From contig CALXRQ010000003.1 of NCBI GenBank assembly GCA_944390895.1, positions 5,550 to 69,549 on the forward strand: 64,000 nucleotides of DNA, in the 5' to 3' direction. The stretch's first letter is position 1; every line of letters starts with the position of its first letter. Below the pieces are notes generated by a model. That model searched no databases, was not told where the DNA came from, and worked only from the letters and a program-made list of their open reading frames with translations. A program made the translations under genes and the position numbers. This DNA is from an uncultured Alphaproteobacteria bacterium. GTDB taxonomy: Bacteria; Pseudomonadota; Alphaproteobacteria; RF32; CAG-239. Positions 54,949 to 64,000 of this stretch are shown in pieces.

Positions 54949-56073
54949 TTATATCACCTCTATGTCTGCCTGCAGTGCGCCGCTGGCCTTAACCGCCTGC
55001 AGAATGCTTATCAGATCCCGCGGCGTAACGCCCAGAGCGTTCAACCCGTCAACCAGTTCCTGAAGATTAACACCGGTGTCCAGAACGCTGAGTTTGGCGT
55101 CAACGTCTTCGTTAATGTCAATTGCGGTGCTGGAGGCAACCACGGTCTGTCCGTCGCTGAACGGCAGCGGCTGGGAAATCAAAGGCATTTCCGATATTTT
55201 GATGGTCAGGTTGCCCTGTGCAATGGCAAGCTTGTTTATTTTTACGTCTTTGCCGATAACCACGATTCCAGAACCTTCGTCAATAACCACTTTGGCCGTT
55301 TGGTCAGGCTGCACTTGTATCTGCTCCACCTTTGTCATCAGCGAAACGATTTTGTCCTTATATTCTTCGGGCACTTCAAGCACAATGGTGGCCGGATCGG
55401 TTGCTTGCGCAGTCTGGATTCCCAGATGGGCGTTAATGGCGTCGCTTACTCTGCGCGCCGTCGTAAAGTCCGGATTGCGCAAGGCAATTCTGATAACTTT
55501 CAGATCTTCAAGGTTAAAAGGAATTTCATTTTCGATAATGGCGCCGTTGGCAATGCGTCCGGAAGTCGGCACGCCTTTGACGACGGATTGGGTAGCGCCT
55601 TTGGCACTGACGGCTCCGACGGCGATTTGTCCCTGAGCTACGGCAAAAATTTCTCCGTTGGCGCCCATCAGAGGCGTTGCCAGTAAGGTTCCGCCCTGCA
55701 GGCTCTTGGCATCGCCCATGGCGCTGACCATAACGTCAATGCGGCTGCCCTGACGTCCGAAAGCGGGCAGGTTGGCCGTGACCATTACCGCCGCGACGTT
55801 TTTGGATTTGAGCTGTCCGTCTCTGGCGTTGATGCCGATTTTGTCAAGCATGGAAATGATGCTTTCCTTTGTAAAGTCAATGGACTTAATGTTATCGCCG
55901 GTTCCGTTTAAACCGACCACCAGGCCGTATCCGATCAGTTGGTTGTCGCGAATGCCTTCAAAATCGGCAATATCTTTAATGCGCGAACTTGCCTGCAACG
56001 GTGCCGCATAAAGGCAGAAACCGGCTGTAAACAGCATAAAGACAAAGGTTTTAATGGTTTTGAACGCAGTCAT
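54949..56073 (-). CDS. flgI: Flagellar P-ring protein
   Basis: Signal peptide, then RIKDIADFEGIRDNQLIGYGLVVGLNGTGD..., the canonical FlgI start. 374 aa. Confidence 0.9.
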   Translation of the reverse strand: MTAFKTIKTFVFMLFTAGFCLYAAPLQASSRIKDIADFEGIRDNQLIGYGLVVGLNGTGDNIKSIDFTKESIISMLDKIGINARDGQLKSKNVAAVMVTANLPAFGRQGSRIDVMVSAMGDAKSLQGGTLLATPLMGANGEIFAVAQGQIAVGAVSAKGATQSVVKGVPTSGRIANGAIIENEIPFNLEDLKVIRIALRNPDFTTARRVSDAINAHLGIQTAQATDPATIVLEVPEEYKDKIVSLMTKVEQIQVQPDQTAKVVIDEGSGIVVIGKDVKINKLAIAQGNLTIKISEMPLISQPLPFSDGQTVVASSTAIDINEDVDAKLSVLDTGVNLQELVDGLNALGVTPRDLISILQAVKASGALQADIEVI

Positions 56074-56116
56074 TTTTCAGGGTCCCGTTTTTTTGCAATT
56101 AATCTGTTACTTTATA

Positions 56117-56132
56117 TGCAATTTTCGTGCCA
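56117..56132 (-). promoter_or_regulatory. Sigma-54 (-24/-12) promoter upstream of the flgI operon
   Basis: - strand reads TGGCACgaaaaTTGCAt, which matches TGGCAC-N5-TTGCW. About 45 nt upstream of the flgI ATG. Confidence 0.6.
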
Positions 56133-56379
56133 TTTTTAAAAAGCTTTGTCGCGTCCATGGTTTCTTTTTAGCGAATATATAAAATATTATGTTATTGGAG
56201 GTGCTTTCAGCCTAAAAATACATAACATAGTAAGTAAAAGTAGTCTTTTCAATAAACTATACACTTTTTTTAATTCATATTTCTTTTTTTAATTGTACTT
56301 TTTTTCAGGTGTTTGTATAGTTGAAGCATAAGTAATATAAAATTTAACAATTGTCAGAATTAAGTAGTGGTTAAATACA

Positions 56380-56685
56380 ATGACCAAACTCATAAATAAA
56401 ATTGTAATGGTAAACAACCGCCGGACCAGCATGAGACTGTGCCTCAAAGAATGGGAGGCTCTGTATGAAGTCTGCAAAATAGAAAAGATATCTAAAAACC
56501 GTCTGATTGAAATGATTGAAGCAAACAAATCCGAAATGTTGGGCCTTACATATTCCACCCGGTTGTTTTTGGTAAGTTATTTCCGTGAAGCTGCGTCTGA
56601 AGACGGCCACAAACTCGCCGGCCACGGCACTTCCGGAGACCAGTCCGCCATTTTGCGCGTCTTAAAAAGCGTTATGGACAAATAG
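56380..56685 (+). CDS. Ribbon-helix-helix domain protein (COG4321-like)
   Basis: NNRRTSMRLCLKEWEALYEVCKIEKISKNRLIEMIE...TRLFLVSYFR fits the RRTS...LE..W..L...A....S...L...I...RLFVL pattern of this RHH family. Confidence 0.5.
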   Translation: MTKLINKIVMVNNRRTSMRLCLKEWEALYEVCKIEKISKNRLIEMIEANKSEMLGLTYSTRLFLVSYFREAASEDGHKLAGHGTSGDQSAILRVLKSVMDK

Positions 56686-56691
56686 TTCTGC

Positions 56692-58134
56692 TTATAAATA
56701 TTTCCTTATTACTTCCTGATCGCTGAACGGATACACTTTACCCATAATATACTGTCCCGTTTCGTGTCCTTTGCCCGCCACAATCAGAACGTCGCCGTCC
56801 CGCAAATTGCCCACGGCATATTTTATGGCATCTTCTCTGCCGCCGATATTATGCGCGTCAGGACATCCGGTCATAATCTGCCGGCGGATTTCCTCGGGAT
56901 TCTCGGTTCTCGGATTGTCGTCGCTGACATAAACTTCGTCTGCTTTCTCCGCGGCGATTTTTCCCATAATCGGACGTTTGCTGTTGTCCCGGTCTCCGCC
57001 GCAGCCGAATAAGACGTGCAGCCGGGCGCGCGTATGGGGACGCATTGCCGCGATAACGTTTTCCAAGGCGTCCGGTGTATGAGCATAGTCAACATAAACG
57101 GCGCCGCCTGCCGCGGTGGTGCCGATATATTCCAAACGGCCTTTTGCACCTTTGATTGAGCTCATTGCCGCCAGCATTTTTTCCGGTTCACCGGTCAGGA
57201 CCGAAGCCAACCCCAGGGCGCACAGCACGTTCATAGCCTGAAAGTCTCCGGCCAGAGGAATAAACAGCTCTCGGGGTTTACCTTCAAAAATAATCTTTAA
57301 TATCTGACCTTTATCGGTCGCTTCTTCGGACAAAAGTTTAATGTCTTGTCCGCGCCGTCCGTAGGAAAGGACTTTCCTGCCCGCTTCCCGGCAGGCTTTC
57401 TCAAGCCTTTCATAAACGTCTGAATCCGCGTTCAAAACGGCGGTTCCATCTTTGTCCAGCAGCTCCGTAAACAGCATTTCTTTGGCTTTATAGTAATTTT
57501 CCATCGTTTTGTGATAGTCCAGATGATCCAATGTCAGATTGGTGAATCCGGCAGCCTTAATACGGATTCCGCCCAAACGATATTCGCAGATTCCGTGGCT
57601 GGAAGCTTCCATGGCAACATAATTGAAACCTTCTTTCGCCAGTGTGTCCAACCATTGATGAAGGGCGACGGTCTCCGGCGTGGTATTGGGGTAAACAAGC
57701 GGCGGCAGGTCATTTTTGATAACGCCGAGCGTTCCCATGCTGGCTGCATTTTTTCCGGCGGCAAAAATTGCCTGGCGAACAAAGTCGGCAATGGAGGTTT
57801 TGCCGTTGGTGCCGGTGACGGCACAAATGTTTTGGGGCCGGTGCGGATAAAAAAGCGCTGCCGCCTGAGCAAAATCTTTGTTCGGATTTGCCGATTCTAA
57901 AAAGCAGACTTCGGGAAATTTTTGCCGCAACGAGGCATCATTGGCCAACACCGCCGCGGCACCGTTGCGGACAGCGGCTTCGATATAACGGTTTCCGTCA
58001 AGCGTAAGCGTTTGCAGCGCCGCATACAGATATCCGGGTTTAACACCGCGCGAATCAGAAGAAAGTCCGATGATTTCCGTTTCTTTAATATCGTTTCTTT
58101 CCGGAAATAATTCTGCCAATTTCATAATTTTCAC
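56692..58134 (-). CDS. murE: UDP-N-acetylmuramoyl-L-alanyl-D-glutamate--2,6-diaminopimelate ligase
   Basis: GTNGKTS P-loop. Mur ligase central and C-terminal domains. DNPR-like region. 480 aa. Stand-alone, not within a dcw cluster. Confidence 0.88.
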   Translation of the reverse strand: MKIMKLAELFPERNDIKETEIIGLSSDSRGVKPGYLYAALQTLTLDGNRYIEAAVRNGAAAVLANDASLRQKFPEVCFLESANPNKDFAQAAALFYPHRPQNICAVTGTNGKTSIADFVRQAIFAAGKNAASMGTLGVIKNDLPPLVYPNTTPETVALHQWLDTLAKEGFNYVAMEASSHGICEYRLGGIRIKAAGFTNLTLDHLDYHKTMENYYKAKEMLFTELLDKDGTAVLNADSDVYERLEKACREAGRKVLSYGRRGQDIKLLSEEATDKGQILKIIFEGKPRELFIPLAGDFQAMNVLCALGLASVLTGEPEKMLAAMSSIKGAKGRLEYIGTTAAGGAVYVDYAHTPDALENVIAAMRPHTRARLHVLFGCGGDRDNSKRPIMGKIAAEKADEVYVSDDNPRTENPEEIRRQIMTGCPDAHNIGGREDAIKYAVGNLRDGDVLIVAGKGHETGQYIMGKVYPFSDQEVIRKYL

Positions 58135-58262: not shown

Positions 58263-58904
58263 ATGGTGAAAAAATTACTTTCAATTTTAGTTGCCCTTTC
58301 TTTTCTGAGCGCTTGCGCCACGGATCCCTATACCGGCGAGAGCAAAGTGTCCAAAACAGCCTGGGGTGCCGGTATCGGCACGGCGGCAGGCGCCGGCATC
58401 GGCGCCTTGATCGGCGGTGAAAAAGGCGCGATAATCGGAGCCGGCATCGGCGCCGCTTCCGGAGCGGGCGTCGGCGGCTATATGGATTTGCAGGCGCGCA
58501 AACTCCGTCAGGAGCTTGAAGGCACCGGCGTCCGTGTGGTCAAAAACGGTGAGACCGTTGTTCTGGTTATGCCCGGAAACATTACTTTCGACACCAATAA
58601 GTCCAATATCAAGGCCAATTTCAAACCGGTTTTGGATTCGGTTGCCAAAGTCATCAACGAGTTCAGCCAGACCAAAGTCCAGGTCACCGGATATACGGAC
58701 AATACCGGCACGGCGGCAATTAATAACAAGCTTTCGGCCGAACGGGCCAATTCCGTCGCGACTTATCTGAAGCTTCGCGGCGTTGCCTCGGGTCGTGTCA
58801 TGGCTGCCGGTCTGGGTTCTTCCAATCCGATTGCAACCAATGCGACGGCCGCCGGACGCGAGCAGAACCGTCGCGTTGAAATCAGTCTGATTAATATGCA
58901 GTAA
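58263..58904 (+). CDS. OmpA-family lipoprotein with Gly-rich (glycine-zipper) N-terminal region
   Basis: Lipobox LSAC. GxGxGxG repeats. C-terminal OmpA domain (...LSAERANSVATYL...NRRVEI). Confidence 0.75.
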   Translation: MVKKLLSILVALSFLSACATDPYTGESKVSKTAWGAGIGTAAGAGIGALIGGEKGAIIGAGIGAASGAGVGGYMDLQARKLRQELEGTGVRVVKNGETVVLVMPGNITFDTNKSNIKANFKPVLDSVAKVINEFSQTKVQVTGYTDNTGTAAINNKLSAERANSVATYLKLRGVASGRVMAAGLGSSNPIATNATAAGREQNRRVEISLINMQ

Positions 58905-58919
58905 TTGTTGTAATCATAA

Positions 58920-58950
58920 AAAAACGCCCGGTTTTGCCGGGTGTTTTTTT
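58920..58950 (+). terminator. Rho-independent terminator
   Basis: aaaaaaCGCCCGGttttGCCGGGTGttttttt. Confidence 0.6.
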
Positions 58951-58978
58951 ATGGCAGCTTTCTGCAACGGCAGTCATT

Positions 58979-59377
58979 TCAACTTTCCAGTTTGTTTTCG
59001 TCAAGCATACTCAGCGTGTCGAACAACAGTTTTTTCAAAATCAGGTTCAGGGTTTGCGCTTTATACTCTTTTGTTTTTTCGGGATTGCCGATAATGTTTT
59101 TCATCTCGGGGTTTTCTTCGTTCAGTTCTGCGTCTGCAACCTGTTTTTCAATGATATCCAGCTGCTCGCCGAGGTAGGCCTTTTGTTCAGCCGAAAAAGA
59201 TTGTCCGATAACTTCAAGCAGGGCGTCTTTCAGACACTTGTTGCCGGCGGCTGTGTCTTGAGTATCGCACTTTTTTATGATATCGGTATATTGCTGCGGA
59301 AGGCCGTCTTCTGCCGCCCAAACCTGAAAAGAAGCAAAAATGCTTAAAAAAGAAAGAGTTAGAAGGATTTTTTTCAT
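58979..59377 (-). CDS. Secreted hypothetical protein
   Basis: Signal peptide MKKILLTLSFLSIFASFQVWA. Two Cys. 132 aa. Confidence 0.45.
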   Translation of the reverse strand: MKKILLTLSFLSIFASFQVWAAEDGLPQQYTDIIKKCDTQDTAAGNKCLKDALLEVIGQSFSAEQKAYLGEQLDIIEKQVADAELNEENPEMKNIIGNPEKTKEYKAQTLNLILKKLLFDTLSMLDENKLES

Positions 59378-59492
59378 TTTAAATGGCTTTCATATTGATG
59401 ATGTCTGTTTCATAGTAGTGTAAATGAGATATAATGCAAGTAAGTTTAGAATTTTATACCTTGTTGAAAAAAAGCGCTAAAATCTGGTCATA

Positions 59493-60815
59493 GTGAATAT
59501 TTTAGATTATATTAAATATGCCTTATATAATATAGTATGTATTTTTGGAACAAAAATGGAGTTTAATATTGATAGTTGCGAAACGATAGAAAAACTGTCT
59601 GTATTAAAAGCCGGAGCGGTTTTTATGAATACCGACGAAGAAAAAGTCCGTTTTGCGGTAAAACTTATTTCTTCGCAGTTGTCGGAAATAGACTTTATCA
59701 TCTGGATTGCGCCGGCGTCGTTTTTTGCCAATGATAATTATAGAGCTATTATGAAAAAATATGGCTGCGGATTGATCCGGAAAATGCGTTTTTTTTCCAT
59801 AGAAGCCGTTTCAATGTCGGACGACAAATATTTGCAGCTGTATAGTCTGTGCGACAAATACCGGACCTTCTGTGTGGTTGACGACAGCCTGACGATTAAA
59901 AATACGGAGGCGGGAAGAACCAAGCGTTTGTTGTCAATCCATAAAAAGTTCAAGTTCCGGCTGATTTTGAGCGCAATTCCGCTGACGCAGGGTCTGATCG
60001 ACCTCTATTCGCAGATAAAGTTTATCGATTCAGGCATCCTTAATATGACGGAAGGACAGTTTTCCAATTGTTTTCTGCCGTTTTATCAGGATGATTACCA
60101 GACTTGGAAGCGCTGGTCGACGCCGGAAAACGAATATCGTCTGATAAAAATGATGAAACCCTACATTTACCGGTGCGACATCAAGGATTGGAACACCAAT
60201 ATCTGCTACCATAACTGCGATTTTGAGCTGACGCCGGCGGAGGCCGAAAGCTATCGTCAGGAAAAAGAAAAGTTTCTTGAAGACAAGGAACAGGTTGCTT
60301 TTATGGAAGTCGCGCAGAGGTTTCAGCACATTTATACCATAGCCGAGAAGAAAGTTGAAGCCTTGTTCCGGCTGCTTGAAGAAATAAGAAAACGACGGGA
60401 AAAGGTGCTGATTTATACCAAATATCTTGATGAAATTGTGTTTTTGAAGGAAACCGGTTTTTTCAGCAAGGGAAAATATGTCGAAATGACCGGAAAATCC
60501 AACAAACGCCAGTCGATCAGGATGTTTGAAAATGATGTGGACATCATGCTGTGCACCTACCGGGTGGATCGGTTGAATTTAAGTTTGCGTCATTGTGATA
60601 ATATTATATACTTCTCTCAGACTTTTGATTATAAAGACAAGCTGCAAAGCCTGTATAATCTTCATCATCATGAAACCGAGCGAAGAATTAATGTGTACAA
60701 TTTTTGGGTAAACACCGGGTTGGAAGGACTGATTCGGGACAATTTGGATCGTAAAAGGAATGTGCTTGCAAATGTTTGCAGCTTAATGTCACGGGAGGCC
60801 GCTCTTAAGTTATGA
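59493..60815 (+). CDS. SNF2-like helicase-related protein with degenerate ATPase motifs
   Basis: Motif Ia-like IIWIAPASFFANDNY. Motif II as VVDDS. Motif III-like RLILSAIPLTQGLIDLYSQIKFI. C-lobe DVDIMLCTYRVDRLNLSL and ...RINVYNFW. No GxGK[ST] P-loop in the N-lobe and no RxGQ in motif VI. Lower GC than its surroundings. The likely start is MEFNID at 59556. Confidence 0.5.
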   Translation: MNILDYIKYALYNIVCIFGTKMEFNIDSCETIEKLSVLKAGAVFMNTDEEKVRFAVKLISSQLSEIDFIIWIAPASFFANDNYRAIMKKYGCGLIRKMRFFSIEAVSMSDDKYLQLYSLCDKYRTFCVVDDSLTIKNTEAGRTKRLLSIHKKFKFRLILSAIPLTQGLIDLYSQIKFIDSGILNMTEGQFSNCFLPFYQDDYQTWKRWSTPENEYRLIKMMKPYIYRCDIKDWNTNICYHNCDFELTPAEAESYRQEKEKFLEDKEQVAFMEVAQRFQHIYTIAEKKVEALFRLLEEIRKRREKVLIYTKYLDEIVFLKETGFFSKGKYVEMTGKSNKRQSIRMFENDVDIMLCTYRVDRLNLSLRHCDNIIYFSQTFDYKDKLQSLYNLHHHETERRINVYNFWVNTGLEGLIRDNLDRKRNVLANVCSLMSREAALKL

Positions 60816-62113
60816 AGAAATATCTTGATATAAATGTTTACGAAGCAGTTCAGGATCGTCTGAAGTTTATCTTTGAGAACTTTGACAATATTTACGTGTC
60901 TTTTTCCGGAGGCAAGGACAGCGGTCTGCTCCTGAATCTGGTTCTTGATTATAAGCGCAGACATCACATTGAGCGCAAAATAGGCGTTTTTCATCAGGAT
61001 TTTGAAGCTCAGTATGACTTAACGACCCAATTCGTAACCCGTATGTTCCAAAACAACATTGACGATATTGAACCGTACTGGGTCTGCTTGCCGATGGCTT
61101 CGCGCTGTGCCGTCAGCAATTATCAGATGTACTGGTATCCGTGGGAGGAAGCCAAAAAAGACAGCTGGGTTCGTCCGATGCCCGATTTCCCGTATATCAT
61201 CAACAAGGACAACAATCCTTTCGAATTTTATAAAGACAAAATGCTGCAGGAAGACTTGTACGCCGAGTTTGGCGGATGGTATGCCAAACACCATGAAGGC
61301 AAAAGCATCTGTCTGCTGGGAATCCGGGCCGACGAGTCATTGAATCGTTATCGCGCCTATGCCAACGTGCATAAGGATATCTTAAAAAAACGCCAGTGGA
61401 CCACCAAAATGGGGCCGACTTATTACAACGCCTATCCTTTGTATGACTGGACCACCAAAGATGTCTGGATTGCCAACGGCAAGTTTGATTTTGACTATAA
61501 CGAGATTTATGACCTGTATTATAAAGCCGGCCTTTCCATCTCTCAGATGCGCGTCGCCAGTCCTTATCATGAGAGCGCCAAAGACAGCCTGAACCTGTAT
61601 CGCATTCTTGAACCGGTTACCTGGGCCAAGGTTGTCGGCCGTGTCCACGGCGCAAATTTCGGCGCCATTTACGGCAATACCCGGGCGCTGGGCGTCGGCA
61701 AAATCGTTTTGCCGGAAGGGCATACCTGGCGTTCTTATGTCAAGTTTCTGCTGGCAACGCTGCCTGATGACATCCGTCGCAATTATATTAAAAAGTTCAC
61801 CACGTCCATCAAATTTTGGTGGCATACCGGCGGCGTGGTGAAAGACGATGCCATTCGTGAACTGGAAGCCTGCAATTACAAAATCCGCACCAACGGTAAA
61901 AGCAATTATAAGTCGGATAAGGAGCGCGTCTGCTTTTTAGGCACGCCCGACGATACGGACGACATCAAGTCGACCATAGACATTCCGTCTTGGAAGCGCA
62001 TGGCAATCTGTATTTTGAAAAACGACCATTTGTGCAAATATATGGGTTTTTCGGAAACCAGAAAACAAAAAGAGCGTCAGGCGCTGTTAATTGAAAAATA
62101 TAAGAAGTTATGA
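60812..62113 (+). CDS. PAPS-reductase-like PP-loop ATP pyrophosphatase with long C-terminal extension (IbrA/DndC/SspD-like)
   Basis: PP-loop YVSFSGGKDSGLLLNL at residues 28-43. 433 aa. ATGA-overlapped with the upstream gene. Confidence 0.7.
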   Translation: MKKYLDINVYEAVQDRLKFIFENFDNIYVSFSGGKDSGLLLNLVLDYKRRHHIERKIGVFHQDFEAQYDLTTQFVTRMFQNNIDDIEPYWVCLPMASRCAVSNYQMYWYPWEEAKKDSWVRPMPDFPYIINKDNNPFEFYKDKMLQEDLYAEFGGWYAKHHEGKSICLLGIRADESLNRYRAYANVHKDILKKRQWTTKMGPTYYNAYPLYDWTTKDVWIANGKFDFDYNEIYDLYYKAGLSISQMRVASPYHESAKDSLNLYRILEPVTWAKVVGRVHGANFGAIYGNTRALGVGKIVLPEGHTWRSYVKFLLATLPDDIRRNYIKKFTTSIKFWWHTGGVVKDDAIRELEACNYKIRTNGKSNYKSDKERVCFLGTPDDTDDIKSTIDIPSWKRMAICILKNDHLCKYMGFSETRKQKERQALLIEKYKKL

Positions 62114-62123
62114 GGTGAAGAAG

Positions 62124-62642
62124 ATGAAACCTTTTGTAAGCCCTGTTTACAATGTCCGGGCCGTTCCGGTCGAAAAAGTCCATGCCAACGATTATAACCC
62201 TAACCGCGTGGCGCCGCCGGAGCTGAAACTGCTGGAACTCTCCATTTGGGAAGATGGCTTTACACAGCCGATTGTCTGCTATCATGATCATGAAAAGGAC
62301 GAATATATCGTTGTAGACGGTTTCCACCGTTATACGATTATGCTGACCAGCGACCGGGTACGCAAACGCGAGCAGGGACTGTTGCCGGTAGTGGTCATTG
62401 ACAAGGAGCTGGGCGAACGTATGGCATCCACCATCCGTCACAACCGCGCGCGCGGCAGTCACAATATCGACCTGATGAGCAATATTGTGCGCGAGCTTTT
62501 GGAAATGGGCAAGTCGGACAGCTGGATCTGCCGCAATATCGGAATGTCTGCCGATGAGCTTTTGCGCCTGAAGCAGATTACCGGCCTGGCTTCGCTGTTT
62601 AAGGACGAAGAATTTTCCAAGAGCTGGCAGGTTGCTGATTAA
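62124..62642 (+). CDS. ParB/Srx-like nuclease domain protein (IbrB-like)
   Basis: ...ANDYNPN... and IVVDGFHRY (ParB box DGxHR). About 172 aa from MKPFVSP (GAGGTG SD). Confidence 0.7.
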   Translation: MKPFVSPVYNVRAVPVEKVHANDYNPNRVAPPELKLLELSIWEDGFTQPIVCYHDHEKDEYIVVDGFHRYTIMLTSDRVRKREQGLLPVVVIDKELGERMASTIRHNRARGSHNIDLMSNIVRELLEMGKSDSWICRNIGMSADELLRLKQITGLASLFKDEEFSKSWQVAD

Positions 62643-62653
62643 AATCCGCCGCG

Positions 62654-62770
62654 CGCCCACGTTGGGTCACTCCGGGCTTGCGAAGGGACTCTGCCTTATA
62701 TTGTCATCCTGAACGAAGTGAAGCAACGAAGTGAGTGAGCAACGTAGTTGTCGAACTCCATCTCAGCCAT
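62654..62770. repeat. Copy B of the dispersed short-repeat family seen at 1940-2037
   Basis: 62654-62681 is similar to 1940-1966 in the same orientation. 62700-62770 is the reverse complement of 1981-2037, with 2-3 mismatches and a 15-nt internal duplication (gcttcacttcgtt). Confidence 0.6.
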
Positions 62771-62771
62771 G

Positions 62772-62797
62772 AAAAAAGCTCCCCGAAAGGGGAGCTT
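62772..62797 (-). terminator. Rho-independent terminator for the - strand gene 62826-63461
   Basis: - strand reads AAGCTCCCCtttcGGGGAGCTttttt. Confidence 0.7.
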
Positions 62798-62825
62798 AAA
62801 ACCGAAGAATTGGTTTTATCCGAGA

Positions 62826-63461
62826 TTATTCCGTTACAAACTCGTAAGCATTGTGAAATTCTTCAAACTGAATCATTTTCACGTCGCCTTTTGAGTCTTT
62901 GCGGATGTAAGCGCCTTTTTCGCCGGCCGTTGCACCGCCGAATTCGGTTCCAGCAGGAACTTCAATGACTTGAAGCACTTCTTTTTTCTTCACGCCGGCA
63001 AAAAGAACGCCGACTGTGATTTCGGAAGGAGCACCCTGCAGATTGGAAGCGAAAGCAACGTCGGTATCGTAAAGGTCCGGGGTCAGACCTTCAAGCGTCA
63101 TTTCTTCCTTAATGAAGGAGATAAGAGCGCTGATACCTTCCGCTGTTTCAAATGTATCGGGGTTTTCCTCGATATACTCTTCAACGGCTTCCTTGCGACC
63201 CGGAGCATTGTAGCAGATAAGACAACCGTCTTTTTGCTTCAAAACCTGAGTCTTCTGGTCTTTGTCATTGAAAAATTCAAGGCCGATGACATCTTCCATA
63301 AACGGACCGTTAGCACCCCATTCTTCTCTCTGAGTAGCGATACCGCCGGAGAAACCGTAAGCCGGAATGATAAGTCTTTCGGCGCCGGTAGGGATAGCGG
63401 TCTTGGCAGCGTTGTTGAACATTGCGTTTACAGTCTCGATTGATAATACAGTTGCATTCAT
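62826..63461 (-). CDS. Hypothetical protein
   Basis: 211-aa ORF followed by a terminator. No recognisable motif. Confidence 0.45.
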   Translation of the reverse strand: MNATVLSIETVNAMFNNAAKTAIPTGAERLIIPAYGFSGGIATQREEWGANGPFMEDVIGLEFFNDKDQKTQVLKQKDGCLICYNAPGRKEAVEEYIEENPDTFETAEGISALISFIKEEMTLEGLTPDLYDTDVAFASNLQGAPSEITVGVLFAGVKKKEVLQVIEVPAGTEFGGATAGEKGAYIRKDSKGDVKMIQFEEFHNAYEFVTE

Positions 63462-63787
63462 AAAATAAAAAAGTTTTAAGTTTGTAATTCAGTTTAATAA
63501 AAATACGGTGTATTGTTAAAAAACTGAAATCGAAACAAACTTTAGAAAATCTAAATTTTGAATGAAAACAACTTCTTAATAATAAACCATATTCTTATAA
63601 TAACACTTTCATATTATCATATTTGAATAGCCGTGCATAGACAAAAAATATGACATTTTTGTTAAAATACGGCTTGACTTTTGTAAAAATGGTCGTTTTC
63701 GAATCCAAAAAATGATTTTCCATCTCGGTAATTGACATAACGCTTCATTCAGGTTACTAAAAAAGAATCGAAAAACAGGAATTGAGC

Positions 63788-64000
63788 ATGATAGACATTA
63801 ATGACATAACCGTGCGCGTCGGCTCCAAAGTGCTCTTGGATCATGCTTCGGCGCATATTTCCGATAGTCAGAAGGTGGGGCTGGTCGGAGCCAACGGCTG
63901 CGGCAAGTCAACTCTGTTTCGGGTTTTGTTGGGACAACAGGAAACCGAAACCGGCGATATTTATTTTCCGCGCGGCAGCCGGGTGGCAACCGTTGCTCAG
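63788..64000 (+). CDS. ABC-F family ATPase (EttA/Uup-like), 5' part only; continues beyond the window
   Basis: MIDINDITVRVGSKVLLDHASAHISDSQKVGLVGANGCGKSTLFRVLLG... Walker A and ABC-F N-terminal pattern. No stop before the window end. Confidence 0.8.
   Translation, partial: MIDINDITVRVGSKVLLDHASAHISDSQKVGLVGANGCGKSTLFRVLLGQQETETGDIYFPRGSRVATVAQ

What the first reader, a model, noticed from the sequence alone, without database searches (positions are those of the whole stretch)
59380..62800. Low-GC three-gene island: degenerate SNF2-like protein, PAPS-reductase/PP-loop protein and ParB-nuclease-domain protein (IbrA/IbrB-like DNA-modification or defence module)
Seen in sequence: three co-directional, overlapping or coupled ORFs (ATGA overlap at 60812; 11-nt gap with an SD at 62113/62124). 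The first keeps SNF2 helicase motifs Ia, III and V but has no P-loop, has DD instead of DE, and lacks the RxGQ arginine finger. The second has a textbook PP-loop SFSGGKDS (PAPS reductase/DndC/SspD-type ATP pyrophosphatase) plus a roughly 250-aa extension. The third has the ParB-box DGFHRY. Established knowledge: PAPS-reductase-like and ParB-like pairs are the E. coli IbrA/IbrB architecture predicted to modify DNA, and similar domains occur in Dnd/Ssp phosphorothioation and type 4 BREX. Inference: this is a horizontally acquired DNA-modification or anti-phage module whose helicase-like partner is catalytically dead (a pseudo-ATPase used as a DNA-binding or translocase-like scaffold). The island is more AT-rich than its neighbours (about 38-42% vs about 50% GC by eye) and is bounded on the right by a dispersed repeat and a terminator.
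Basis: partly seen in the sequence, partly recalled or inferred. Interest (0 to 1): 0.72.

Follow-up and report, generated by a model that had tools for sequence, protein, structure and literature searches.

The report
Domesticated phage IbrA/IbrB module, dead helicase
This is a three-gene operon that came from a widespread bacteriophage module of unknown function (small SNF2 motor, IbrA-type ATP-using enzyme, IbrB-type ParB-like protein). It is now a fixed chromosomal gene set in many gut Alphaproteobacteria, where the motor protein has lost its ATP-burning motifs but is still kept by selection.

Summary
Three translationally coupled genes encode a compact SNF2-fold protein (59556-60815), a PAPS-reductase-like PP-loop + DUF3440 protein (IbrA/YbdN family, 60812-62113) and a ParB_N protein (IbrB/YbdM family, 62124-62642).

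The SNF2 protein lacks Walker A, has DD for DE and lacks RxGQ.

The "recently acquired low-GC defence island" reading is not supported:
- The trio is strictly linked in about 70 species-level genomes of uncultured gut Alphaproteobacteria.
- It is flanked by housekeeping genes and diverges in step with the neighbouring flgI.
- It has no full-length or cutoff-passing match to a known defence family; only gene A is AT-rich.

Its closest relatives with an intact SNF2 are in phages: 43 of 43 viral contigs, plus Flavobacterium, Streptococcus and Lactobacillus phages. Listeria and Opitutales chromosomes also carry intact versions. Most of these also carry one or two small upstream genes that the alphaproteobacterial clade lacks.

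ATPase loss happened once (monophyletic clade). Only motifs I, V and VI decayed. Gene A stays under purifying selection (dN/dS about 0.03-0.13).

The most likely function is an ATP-dependent nucleic-acid (DNA) modification or regulatory complex, with the SNF2 reduced to a DNA-binding scaffold. The chemistry is unknown. I rate it a new variant of a known but uncharacterised kind.

The parts
59378..59555 (+). AT-rich 178-nt upstream intergenic region and probable promoter or leader of the operon
   Evidence: It lies between the divergent 132-aa ORF (58979-59377, minus strand) and the ATG of A. Blocks such as CTTGTTGAAAAA and TATATAATA...TATGTA...AAAAATG are conserved with L001 and L003. Promoter-like hexamers at 59424-59452 and 59485-59513 are not more frequent than chance (11 found against 8.6 +/- 2.6 expected). 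The region is too short to hold the small c3/c4 genes that precede the trio in phages.
59556..60815 (+). Gene A: compact two-lobe SNF2-fold protein (419 aa), a catalytically inactive pseudo-ATPase
   Evidence: Pfam SNF2-rel_dom E=3e-8. The family profile matches Ino80, Swr1, ISWI and the Sulfolobus Rad54-like core 1z63. Motifs I, II and VI are lost, V is degenerate, and Ia, IIa, III, IV and Vb are kept. The inactive clade is monophyletic. dN/dS is 0.02-0.13.
60812..62113 (+). Gene B: IbrA/YbdN-family protein (433 aa), an N-terminal PAPS-reductase-like PP-loop domain plus C-terminal DUF3440
62114..62123 (+). 10-nt B-C spacer with a Shine-Dalgarno sequence (GAGGTGA spanning the stop codon of B)
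   Evidence: Sequence read directly.
62124..62642 (+). Gene C: IbrB/YbdM-family ParB/Srx-fold protein (172 aa) with a C-terminal helical (HTH-like) segment
   Evidence: Pfam ParB_N E=3e-6; phrog_2159 E=2e-79. It aligns to Noc 7ol9 across the GxxR box, with VDGFHRY in place of GERRWRA. It is 63-69% identical to the phage and Listeria homologues. It shares the invariant blocks with them and with E. coli YbdM: SPVY, NxYNPNxV, VDG[FY]HR, TIRHNRARGxH, LRLKQxxGL.
62776..62797 (-). GC-rich hairpin at the right boundary, probably the terminator of the convergent downstream gene and possibly acting in both directions
   Evidence: 9-bp stem with 6 GC pairs and the T-run on the minus strand. On the plus strand it is followed by AAAACC, so it is not a canonical terminator for the operon.

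Best explanation
The segment is a three-gene operon, a chromosomally fixed (domesticated) and reduced derivative of a widespread phage or mobile-element module.

**Ancestral module.** It consists of one or two small proteins of unknown function, a compact active SNF2 ATPase, an IbrA-type enzyme (PAPS-reductase-like PP-loop ATP pyrophosphatase or adenylyltransferase domain plus DUF3440), and an IbrB-type ParB/Srx-fold NTP-binding protein.

**What changed in this lineage (shown).** In the ancestor of a large clade of uncultured gut Alphaproteobacteria, the module lost the small genes and the ATP-binding and hydrolysis motifs of the SNF2 subunit. Motifs I and VI went first, with V; motif II decayed later and repeatedly. 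All three genes stayed under purifying selection, and B and C under very strong selection.

**How it likely works (inferred, not shown).**
- The three proteins form a complex on DNA.
- IbrB binds a nucleoside triphosphate and DNA in the manner of a ParB-type switch.
- IbrA uses ATP at its intact PP-loop to adenylylate an acceptor on the nucleic acid. By analogy with its closest structural relatives (FMN adenylyltransferase, CysD, DndC-type enzymes), the acceptor is most likely a phosphate-type oxygen. The result is a covalent modification or a modification-dependent change in gene expression.
- The SNF2 protein supplies the grip on DNA. In phages it is an ATP-driven translocase that spreads or delivers the activity. 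In this clade it is a static DNA-binding or scaffolding subunit.

The module has no restriction partner. In this genome it behaves as an orphan, housekeeping-like system rather than a defence system.
For: **Identity**
- Pfam, PHROG and NCBIfam results.
- All catalytic and invariant residues of B and C are retained.

**Linkage**
- The order A-B-C is kept in all genome loci whose contig reaches far enough.
- The trio is linked (A-B-C or B-C-A) in the viral loci long enough to show it, 38 of 43.

**Phage origin**
- The nearest intact-motif relatives sit beside integrase, holin and amidase, or terminase and portal genes.
- The trio occurs in Lactobacillus, Streptococcus and Flavobacterium phages.
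- All viral copies keep GxGKT, DES and RxGQ where the sequence is complete.

**Domestication**
- Flanks are housekeeping genes with no mobility or defence genes.
- Five subclade-specific syntenic contexts exist, including flgI directly upstream.
- Divergence is congruent with FlgI: Mantel r=0.91, 0.93 and 0.82 for A, B and C, p about 5e-4.
- B (0.82) is as conserved as FlgI (0.82).

**Single inactivation and retained function**
- The 162 inactive sequences form one clade with no active member inside.
- Decay is motif-specific. Column conservation, active to dead: I 0.94 to 0.45, V 0.90 to 0.57, VI 0.86 to 0.31. Ia, IIa, III, IV and Vb stay at 0.80-0.87.
- dN/dS: A 0.02-0.13, B 0.01-0.045, C 0-0.03. 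In active Opitutales A equals B at about 0.03-0.04.
- A diverges about twice as fast as B only in the dead clade.

**Loss of small partner genes**
- HMMs of c3 and c4 hit only the loci with an active SNF2 (L061-65, L073). They hit nothing in the window or any alphaproteobacterial locus.

**Enzyme inference**
- The trio sits next to N6-methyltransferase-like, HNH and dUTPase genes in phage early regions.
- An ectoine-synthase-like cupin is inserted between IbrA and IbrB in some viral loci.

**Established knowledge**
- ParB-fold proteins are CTP, ATP or GTP switches, often on mobile elements (PMC12704722).
- DndB (ParB-like) and DndC (PP-loop) act together on DNA, and inactive SNF2 modules are proposed DNA binders in DndH (PMC10853773).
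Against: - No direct evidence here or in the searched literature shows any DNA modification by IbrA/IbrB-type proteins. The only reported phenotype is activation of prophage eib genes in E. coli, as recalled in PMC4541368 and PMC8813620.
- B has no conserved Cys cluster and no cysteine desulfurase neighbour, so Dnd-like sulfur chemistry is not indicated.
- The substrate could be RNA, a nucleotide or a protein rather than DNA.
- Physical interaction among A, B and C is inferred only from linkage and translational coupling.
- Domestication rests on MAG contigs. A very old, stably integrated cryptic element cannot be formally excluded.
- The higher conservation of B and C in the alphaproteobacterial clade could partly reflect the clade's shallower depth.
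Confidence: 0.55

Rival explanations
1. Transcriptional co-activator or anti-silencing complex. As first described for E. coli IbrA/IbrB, the proteins act mainly as regulators. IbrB would be a ParB-type DNA clamp and the SNF2 protein would remodel nucleoid or RNA polymerase complexes. No chemical mark would be left on DNA, and the PP-loop domain would serve as a nucleotide sensor.
For: - The only published phenotype for the family is activation of prophage eib genes (recalled in PMC4541368, PMC4490671 and PMC8813620).
- E. coli ybdNM is itself under a dedicated LysR repressor (PMC9068703).
- C has an HTH-like C-terminal segment.
- In one phage the trio sits just upstream of terminase, a typical place for late-gene activators.
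- A dead SNF2 is compatible with a purely DNA-binding role.
Against: - Every catalytic-type residue of the PP-loop domain is invariant across phyla (SGGKDS, D63, E65, R172, E175, S176, D212, D217). B has dN/dS of 0.01-0.04, which is typical of an enzyme.
- Some viral operons carry an inserted tailoring-type cupin enzyme.
- A regulatory effect could be secondary to a modification.
Confidence: 0.2
2. Anti-phage defence or self-marking module: a horizontally acquired island that modifies host DNA or restricts invaders, comparable to Dnd, Ssp or BREX type 4.
For: - There are domain-level parallels: DndB/DndC, SspD and BrxP for B, and SNF2 helicases of Zorya, DISARM and Dpd for A.
- PADLOC and NCBIfam give weak hits: ZorD 5e-11 and DpdE 1e-7, DrmD 3e-7, DndC 4e-6 and BrxP 1e-5.
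- Phages and plasmids do carry defence genes.
Against: - All hits are partial and far below family cutoffs. DISARM DrmD scores 29 bits against a cutoff of 950, and DndC TIGR03183 scores 21 against 290.
- C has no PADLOC hit.
- No nuclease, restriction gene, PglZ or DndD/E partner is within +/-7 kb in 74 loci, and no defence or mobility genes flank the trio.
- The cassette is conserved and syntenic across a clade, with core-gene-like conservation.
- The translocase is dead in this lineage.
- Versions with an active SNF2 sit mostly in phage early regions beside anti-restriction (Lar) and methyltransferase genes, which suggests counter-defence if anything.
Confidence: 0.1
3. RNA, tRNA or nucleotide-pool modifying enzyme pair. 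IbrA would adenylate a base or nucleotide, as TilS, TtcA, MnmA and QueC do. IbrB would act as an Srx- or SerK-like phosphotransferase. The target would be tRNA, rRNA or free nucleotides rather than DNA.
For: - ParB/Srx-fold members include Srx, SerK and SbnI, with weak NCBIfam hits.
- Core-gene-like conservation fits a housekeeping modification.
- In an E. coli citR mutant, derepression of ybdNM coincides with induction of the cys regulon (PMC9068703).
Against: - The obligatory partner is an SNF2-family protein, and SNF2 proteins are dsDNA translocases.
- The genes sit in phage DNA-metabolism regions.
- The best structural matches are the phosphate- or sulfate-adenylylating subgroup, not the base-modifying one.
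Confidence: 0.12
4. A sulfate-assimilation PAPS reductase (CysH) next to unrelated genes, a toxin-antitoxin pair (B toxin, C antitoxin, as guessed by TASmania for Listeria), or decaying pseudogenes.
For: - Pfam PAPS_reduct hit.
- The TASmania guilt-by-association listing for lmo1309 and lmo1310 (PMC7020466).
- Loss of motifs in A.
Against: - CysH models score 13-18 bits against cutoffs of 154-254, and the CysH C-terminal catalytic motif is absent.
- DUF3440 and the ParB partner are invariably linked.
- All three ORFs are intact in more than 60 species with dN/dS well below 1.
- Strong conservation and core-like distribution are atypical for toxin-antitoxin systems.
Confidence: 0.03

Closest known systems
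E. coli IbrA/IbrB (ECOR-9 'co-activators of prophage eib gene expression') and their K-12 paralogues YbdN/YbdM
   Same: - Same two-protein architecture, adjacent and co-directional: PAPS_reduct + DUF3440 followed by a roughly 170-210-aa ParB_N protein.
- B is 33% identical to YbdN over its full length.
- C shares every invariant block with YbdM.
   Different: - The E. coli loci have no SNF2 partner; ybdNM has a LysR repressor (CitR) instead.
- YbdN lacks about 40 residues of the DUF3440 beta-hairpin region.
- The biochemical function of the E. coli proteins is also unknown.
Phage, Listeria and Opitutales 'mini-SNF2 + IbrA + IbrB' modules (e.g. Lactobacillus phage CR28, Streptococcus phage Pika, Flavobacterium FCL-2-like phages, L. 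monocytogenes lmo1311-lmo1309)
   Same: - Same three genes, usually in the same order and overlapping.
- Same compact (about 390-420 aa) SNF2 family.
- Identity to the window: A 25-49%, B 43-48%, C 63-69%.
   Different: - Those SNF2 proteins keep GxGKT, DES and RxGQ. Most are preceded by one or two small genes (phrog_27058, phrog_8389).
- The window's clade has lost both the motifs and the small genes.
- Most of the others sit in phage or prophage contexts, whereas this one sits among housekeeping genes.
DndB/DndC of the Dnd phosphorothioation system, with SspD and BrxP of type 4 BREX
   Same: - A ParB-superfamily protein is paired with a PAPS-reductase-like PP-loop ATP pyrophosphatase that acts on DNA.
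- This is the best mechanistic analogy (PMC10853773, PMC12839542).
   Different: - Sequence matches are marginal and partial: DndC 21-24 bits, and BrxP only over the PP-loop at residues 22-44.
- There is no 4Fe-4S Cys triad or Cys dyad.
- No DndA, DndD, DndE, SspA-C, PglZ or BrxC/L genes are nearby.
- DUF3440 is absent from DndC.
Dpd 7-deazaguanine DNA-modification system (DpdA transglycosylase, the ParB-like ATPase DpdB, and SNF2-type DpdE and related helicases)
   Same: A ParB-like NTPase cooperates with a DNA-modifying enzyme, and SNF2-type helicases are encoded in the same system. A gives a weak PADLOC DpdE hit at 1e-7.
   Different: - There is no TGT/DpdA and no preQ0 pathway genes.
- C has no PADLOC DpdB hit.
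- The SNF2 here is about 420 aa and inactive, whereas DpdE exceeds 850 aa.
Inactive SNF2 C-terminal lobe of DndH, and pseudo-ATPase helicase modules in general
   Same: This is a precedent for an SNF2-derived module that has lost Walker motifs and arginine fingers and is proposed to act only as a DNA binder (PMC10853773).
   Different: - DndH keeps only the second lobe, fused into a giant restriction protein.
- Here the complete two-lobe core is a stand-alone protein that was inactivated recently enough for active orthologues to exist at 45-49% identity.
PAPS/APS reductases (CysH), ATP sulfurylase subunit CysD, and FMN adenylyltransferase (the FAD synthase PAPS domain)
   Different: - Identity is 14-19%.
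- There is no CysH C-terminal ECGLH motif.
- Family models score far below their cutoffs.
- B has an additional 190-aa DUF3440 domain with no solved relative.

Membership tests
IbrA/YbdN family (COG3969; PAPS_reduct + DUF3440) | N-terminal PAPS-reductase-like PP-loop domain followed by DUF3440 in one polypeptide | tested here: met
   PF01507 E=2.6e-10 (41 bits against a cutoff of 22.5) and PF11922 E=8.9e-79 over the full profile. phrog_2302 E=1e-109. The top BFVD hit is a COG3969 protein.
IbrA/YbdN family (COG3969; PAPS_reduct + DUF3440) | Full-length homology to E. coli YbdN with the family-invariant residues retained | tested here: met
   33% identity to YbdN. In A3 there are 49 invariant columns, including SFSGGKDS, D63, E65, GIR..ES..R and D212/D217. 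These are still nearly invariant in 62 diverse sequences.
IbrB/YbdM family (short ParB/Srx-fold proteins paired with IbrA) | ParB_N domain with the DG[FY]HR box, encoded immediately downstream of the IbrA gene | tested here: met
   PF02195 at 27.4 bits against a cutoff of 26.3; phrog_2159 E=2e-79. It shares invariant blocks with YbdM. Adjacency holds in all loci.
IbrA/IbrB as functionally defined in E. coli ECOR-9 | Activates expression of prophage eib (immunoglobulin-binding) genes | not testable with these tools
   This is an experimental phenotype. No eib genes or prophage are evident next to the operon.
SNF2 family ATPases (fold) | Two RecA-like lobes with SNF2-specific motifs Ia, III, IV and Vb | tested here: met
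   PF00176 at 33.5 bits against a cutoff of 24.9. The profile matches Ino80, Swr1, ISWI and SsoRad54 in both lobes at E down to 5e-18. Motifs Ia, IIa, III, IV and Vb are conserved.
SNF2 family ATPases (catalytically active members) | Walker A GxGK[TS], Walker B DExx, and motif VI arginine finger RxGQ | tested here: not met
   The window has NTDEEK, VVDDS and HHHETE at these three positions. The same loss of motifs I and VI is seen in all 162 members of the clade.
Dnd phosphorothioation (DndC, DndB) | DndC equivalog score, the 4Fe-4S Cys triad and Cys dyad, and dndA/D/E neighbours | tested here: not met
   TIGR03183 scores 21.4 bits against a cutoff of 290. Only two conserved Cys (C92, C408) are present and there is no cluster. 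No Dnd genes lie in the flanks. C has no PADLOC hit.
BREX type 4 (BrxP) and Ssp (SspD) | Full-length match to BrxP or SspD models, and PglZ/BrxC/BrxL or SspABC neighbours | tested here: not met
   The BrxP hit covers only residues 22-44, the PP-loop. There is no SspD hit, and no such neighbours.
Assimilatory PAPS/APS reductase (CysH) | Passes the CysH family models, has the C-terminal catalytic Cys motif, and sits in a cys operon | tested here: not met
   TIGR00434 scores 18 against 165, NF002537 13.8 against 154, and TIGR02057 12.8 against 254. There are no cys genes nearby.
Known anti-phage defence systems (PADLOC-DB v2) | Significant full-length matches of the component proteins to a system's models, together with that system's partner genes | tested here: not met
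   Only partial SNF2-domain hits (ZorD, DpdE, PbeA) for A, weak DndC and BrxP hits for B, and none for C.

The most novel reading that the evidence does not exclude
The 'small proteins + mini-SNF2 + IbrA + IbrB' module is a so far uncharacterised, phage-borne enzymatic system. It would install a new kind of covalent mark on DNA, using PP-loop adenylylation chemistry distinct from Dnd, Ssp and Dpd.

An abundant clade of human and animal gut Alphaproteobacteria would have domesticated it as a core, restriction-free epigenetic or regulatory system. In doing so it converted the chromatin-remodeller-type motor into a pseudo-ATPase scaffold. That would be a rare, datable example of the birth of a pseudoenzyme within an SNF2 family.
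Probability: 0.3. Interest if true: 0.8.

Novelty: new variant of a known kind. Interest (0 to 1): 0.5.

Why it matters
[quoted passage not shown] The literature searched here gives no biochemical function for them.

This locus adds three things:
1. The natural unit is larger: an SNF2 motor plus one or two small proteins.
2. The unit is primarily a phage module.
3. A whole clade of gut Alphaproteobacteria has kept a stripped-down version in which the motor is dead but still under selection, while the two enzymes are as conserved as a flagellar core protein.

The contrast between the active phage version and the inactive chromosomal version is a natural experiment. It can separate the ATP-dependent translocation role from the scaffold role. 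It also points to tractable systems for finding the reaction: Listeria, S. thermophilus phages and E. coli ybdNM. If the product is a new DNA modification, it would matter for phage-host conflict, for methods that read DNA modifications, and for the biology of a common but uncultured gut lineage.

Tried and rejected
1. **Shallow alignment for structure prediction.** Prediction of B from an alignment of 77-100% identity (A4) gave pLDDT 50 and was unusable. A diverse alignment from the representative search fixed it.
2. **Third homologue search.** Running it with the diverse profile A3 returned the same alphaproteobacterial clade again and added no diversity.
4. **Rfam.** A scan of 58900-64000 gave no hits.
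5. **Promoter and terminator scans.** Counts were not above chance. Inverted-repeat search found no convincing parS-like site; the only finds were a weak 18-nt pair inside A and a GC palindrome inside C.
6. **Literature.**
   - Queries for DUF3440, IbrA/IbrB, ybdN/ybdM, the lmo genes, and PAPS reductase+ParB+SNF2 found only annotations and one regulatory study.
   - The ParB/Srx paper by Maindola et al. is not held in the library.
7. **CysH, Dnd, Ssp and BREX-4 membership.** Rejected on model scores, absent Cys clusters and absent partner genes.
8. **Decaying pseudogene reading of A.** Rejected by dN/dS and motif-specific conservation.
9. **'Low-GC island means recent HGT'.** Rejected because only A is AT-rich, and it is so in all 65 loci measured.

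Full report
**1. What is in the sequence**

Between 59.4 and 62.7 kb there are three co-directional ORFs on the plus strand:
- A: 59493 (GTG) or 59556 (ATG) to 60815.
- B: 60812 to 62113.
- C: 62124 to 62642.

A and B overlap by ATGA. B and C are separated by a 10-nt spacer, with a GAGGTGA ribosome-binding site spanning B's stop codon. Homologues of A are almost all 416-420 aa, and the upstream DNA of the two closest loci is conserved up to the ATG at 59556. That ATG is therefore the likely start.

Pfam results:
- A: SNF2-rel_dom (E=3e-8, above cutoff) and a weak Helicase_C.
- B: PAPS_reduct (3e-10) plus DUF3440 (9e-79, full length).
- C: ParB_N (3e-6).

PHROGs places B and C in phage families phrog_2302 (1e-109) and phrog_2159 (2e-79).

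**2.

A profile of the A family matches both lobes of Ino80, Swr1, ISWI and the minimal Sulfolobus Rad54-like core, so A is a genuine but very compact SNF2 core.

Aligned with relatives, the window protein differs from active members at three motifs:

| Motif | Active members | Window |
|---|---|---|
| I | FMKMGTGKTKV | FMNTDEEKVRF |
| II | VVDES | VVDDS |
| VI | HRIYRTGQ | YNLHHHETE |

Motif V is also degraded (CTYRVDRLNLSL against CTYGVGSLGLNLQ).

Mean column conservation in 162 inactive and 20 active sequences:

| Motif | Active | Inactive |
|---|---|---|
| I | 0.94 | 0.45 |
| V | 0.90 | 0.57 |
| VI | 0.86 | 0.31 |
| Ia, IIa, III, IV, Vb, post-VI block | 0.77-0.88 | 0.79-0.87 |

The decay is confined to the ATP-binding and hydrolysis elements.

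**3. Distribution and linkage**

A scan of one genome per species found 74 loci.
- Sixty-eight are from uncultured gut Alphaproteobacteria from human, mouse, chicken, deer and rabbit. Examples are 'Proteobacteria bacterium CAG:495', 'uncultured Azospirillum sp.' and Candidatus Scatocola.
- Five are from Opitutales/Puniceicoccaceae and one is from Melioribacteraceae.
- L001 is the same species as the window (99%).

Wherever the contig reaches far enough, the order A-B-C is preserved.

Identity to the window within the Alphaproteobacteria:

| Protein | Identity |
|---|---|
| A | 37-69% |
| B | 74-84% |
| C | 80-88% |

B and C are thus as conserved as the flagellar P-ring protein FlgI (77-83%).

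No fourth gene is consistently linked in these genomes. The cassette sits in about five subclade-specific contexts made of housekeeping genes: flagellar genes, a ZIP transporter, an aldo-keto reductase, MnmA, proline iminopeptidase, ABC-F and a LysR regulator. No integrase, transposase or recognisable defence gene is present.

In 13 loci where flgI is nearby, pairwise divergence of A, B and C tracks that of FlgI (Mantel r=0.91, 0.93 and 0.82; p about 5e-4). This is the signature of long-term vertical inheritance, not of a recent island.

**4. Composition**

| Sequence | GC |
|---|---|
| Window | 47.8% |
| A | 41.6% |
| B | 46.2% |
| C | 51.8% |
| 30 long ORFs | mean 49.0%, sd 3.0 |

A is the lowest of the 30 long ORFs. 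B and C are ordinary, and so are their GC3 values. Across 65 orthologous loci, A is on average 5.5 points below its locus, B is 1.1 below and C is 1.5 above. Low GC is a property of gene A, not evidence of a foreign island.

**5. Where the module comes from**

The same trio, with the same compact SNF2 family, occurs in several places:
- Lactobacillus phage CR28 and Streptococcus phages, between the lysis and early modules.
- All 90 Flavobacterium phage records that carry IbrA.
- The L. monocytogenes chromosome (lmo1311-1309). These are core genes, and they are listed as specific to the host-associated sensu stricto clade.
- 43 IMG/VR viral contigs, in the order A-B-C or B-C-A.

The database relatives closest to the window that still have intact motifs (46-49% identity) lie next to integrase, holin and amidase, or terminase and portal genes.

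Every viral, phage, Listeria, Opitutales and Melioribacteraceae copy with complete sequence keeps GxGKT, DES and RxGQ. No viral contig carries the inactive form, even though the search patterns came from an alignment dominated by inactive sequences.

In a neighbour-joining tree of 183 A sequences rooted on the Firmicutes versions, the 162 inactive sequences form a single clade with no active member inside. Motif II then decays patchily within the clade (DE to DD, DG, DN or DA). The window's lineage is among the most degenerate.

**6. Extra components that this lineage lost**

In the viral loci, one or two small genes directly precede the trio:
- c3 is about 122 aa and belongs to phrog_27058. 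The Listeria ORF upstream of lmo1311 belongs to the same phrog.
- c4 is about 89 aa and belongs to phrog_8389.
- Neither has a Pfam domain, and both share an 'ETEKAxL...W.PK' motif.

HMMs of c3 and c4, searched against six-frame translations of the window and all 74 genome loci, hit only the six loci with an active SNF2. They hit nothing in the window or any alphaproteobacterial locus. In many of those loci, including the window (178 nt), the gap upstream of A is too short to hold such a gene.

So the alphaproteobacterial cassette is a reduced version. It lost the small partners and the motor activity together.

**7. Selection**

In active lineages A and B diverge at the same pace (for example 40% against 44%, 71% against 70%, 97% against 96% identity). 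In the inactive clade A diverges about twice as fast as B (47% against 76%, 56% against 83%, 77% against 94%).

dN/dS on unsaturated pairs:

| Lineage | A | B | C |
|---|---|---|---|
| Inactive clade | 0.02-0.13 | 0.01-0.045 | 0-0.03 |
| Active Opitutales | 0.03-0.04 | 0.03-0.045 | 0.02-0.03 |

A is therefore relaxed two- to four-fold but clearly still functional. It is a retained pseudo-enzyme, not a pseudogene. One MAG (L068) may carry a disrupted copy.

**8. The enzymes**

*IbrA-type proteins.* From Alphaproteobacteria, Opitutales, phages, Listeria, a Clostridium plasmid and E. coli YbdN, these proteins share several conserved elements:
- the PP-loop SFSGGKDS;
- D63 and E65;
- W-x-C92-L-P;
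- G-I-R-x-x-E-S-x-x-R;
- P-x-x-D-W...D-x-W;
- a C-terminal ILKND-x2-C408.

There is no cysteine cluster, so a DndC-like 4Fe-4S centre is not expected.

The closest relatives all handle an adenylyl group bonded to a phosphate or sulfate oxygen. By inference, that makes a phosphate-type acceptor more likely than a base carbonyl.

*IbrB-type proteins.* These are unusually invariant: 63-69% identity between this bacterium and phages of Firmicutes. They keep the G-x-x-R box of ParB (VDGFHRY) and a TIRHNRARGxH block. ParB-fold proteins are NTP switches or enzymes that may use CTP, ATP or GTP, and specificity cannot be read from sequence (PMC12704722).

**9. What it most likely does**

*Shown:*
- A conserved, translationally coupled three-protein unit.
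- Two intact, highly constrained enzyme-like subunits.
- One DNA-motor-derived subunit with a dead active site.
- A phage origin and chromosomal fixation.

*Inferred:* the proteins act together on DNA. IbrB is the NTP-dependent DNA-binding subunit and IbrA is an ATP-dependent adenylylating or modifying enzyme. The SNF2 subunit is a translocase in phages and a static scaffold here.

*Supporting context:*
- The trio sits in phage early or DNA-metabolism regions beside N6-methyltransferase-like, Lar, HNH and dUTPase genes.
- An ectoine-synthase-like cupin lies between IbrA and IbrB in some viral operons.
- There are mechanistic precedents in DndB/DndC, in DpdB/DpdA, and in the inactive SNF2 lobe of DndH (PMC10853773, PMC12839542).

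The only published phenotype for the family, activation of prophage eib genes in E. coli, could be a consequence of such an activity or an alternative, purely regulatory function. No paper in the searched library reports a biochemical activity.

One weak lead: deleting the ybdNM repressor CitR in E. coli raises ybdN 5.5-fold and also induces the cys regulon 2- to 2.8-fold (PMC9068703).

**10. Comparison and verdict**

- B and C are members of the IbrA/YbdN and IbrB/YbdM families; every sequence-defined feature is met.
- A is a member of the SNF2 fold family but fails all three catalytic criteria.
- The locus is not Dnd, Ssp, BREX-4, Dpd or CysH. Model scores are far below cutoffs and the partner genes and Cys motifs are absent.
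- It matches no PADLOC system.

The defence-island interpretation is therefore not supported. The 'IbrA/IbrB-like module with a pseudo-ATPase partner' interpretation is supported and extended.

I rate it a new variant of a known but functionally uncharacterised kind, of moderate interest. Its value lies in defining the full module, its phage origin and a clade-wide natural 'motor-dead' version. Together these make the long-standing question of what IbrA/IbrB proteins do more tractable.

Noticed in passing
window 62699-62768 and 1982-2037 (inverted): A short dispersed repeat of about 70 nt (ATTGTCATCCTGAACGAAGTGA...GTTGTCGAACTCCATCTCAGCC) has two copies in the window at 95-100% identity. The copy beside the operon carries an internal 13-nt duplication. 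It looks like a small REP- or MITE-like element. No Rfam family matches the copy next to the operon, the only one that was scanned.
   Followed up: partly
window 56000-56750: This is the lowest-GC patch of the last 14 kb (0.32-0.37), lying between flgI and murE. It holds a 101-aa RHH_4 (ribbon-helix-helix) ORF at 56380-56685. The block RHH_4-murE-ompA-like-132-aa ORF separates flgI from the trio only in the window, L001 and L003. In other species flgI abuts the trio directly.
   Followed up: partly
viral loci L076, L079, L080, L082-L124 and L077:5451-5825; bacterial loci L061-L065 and L073: Two small, related genes with no Pfam match (c3 of about 122 aa, phrog_27058; c4 of about 89 aa, phrog_8389) sit directly upstream of the SNF2-IbrA-IbrB trio wherever the SNF2 is active. 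They share the motif ETEKAxL...W.PK and the C-terminal tail IEPV[FY]NQ..I.EL. They are absent from every locus with the dead SNF2.
   Followed up: yes
viral loci L087-L092 (e.g. L090:7099-7479): A 126-aa ectoine-synthase-family cupin (PF06339, E=2e-44) is inserted between the IbrA and IbrB genes in a subset of viral contigs. These contigs have the gene order IbrA-cupin-IbrB-SNF2. It may be a tailoring enzyme.
   Followed up: partly
locus L068:7001-8243: In one MAG the A gene matches over only 253 residues and appears split into separate ORFs, while B and C are intact. This could be pseudogenisation of the dead SNF2 or an assembly error.
   Followed up: no
window 62826-63461 (minus strand): The convergent 211-aa ORF downstream of the operon has no Pfam, NCBIfam, PADLOC or PHROG match. 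It is found only in the two closest loci, L001 and L003.
   Followed up: partly
locus L078 (C. perfringens plasmid pSXP-169) and many Klebsiella, Escherichia, Ralstonia and Enterococcus plasmids: An IbrA-like gene matches in 726 plasmid records. In the one plasmid examined (C. perfringens pSXP-169, 60% identity to the window's B) an IbrB-like ParB gene follows it and no SNF2 gene is adjacent. Sixty mycobacteriophage records also carry IbrA-like genes but not this SNF2. The SNF2 therefore looks like a frequent but not obligatory partner.
   Followed up: partly
literature: E. coli K-12 ybdNM (locus L081): In a citR (ybdO) deletion, ybdN rises 5.5-fold and ybdM 2.5-fold. Sulfate-assimilation genes (cysA, C, D, I, J, N, U, W) rise 2- to 2.8-fold and flagellar genes also go up (PMC9068703). 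This may link YbdNM activity to sulfur demand, which is untested.
   Followed up: no
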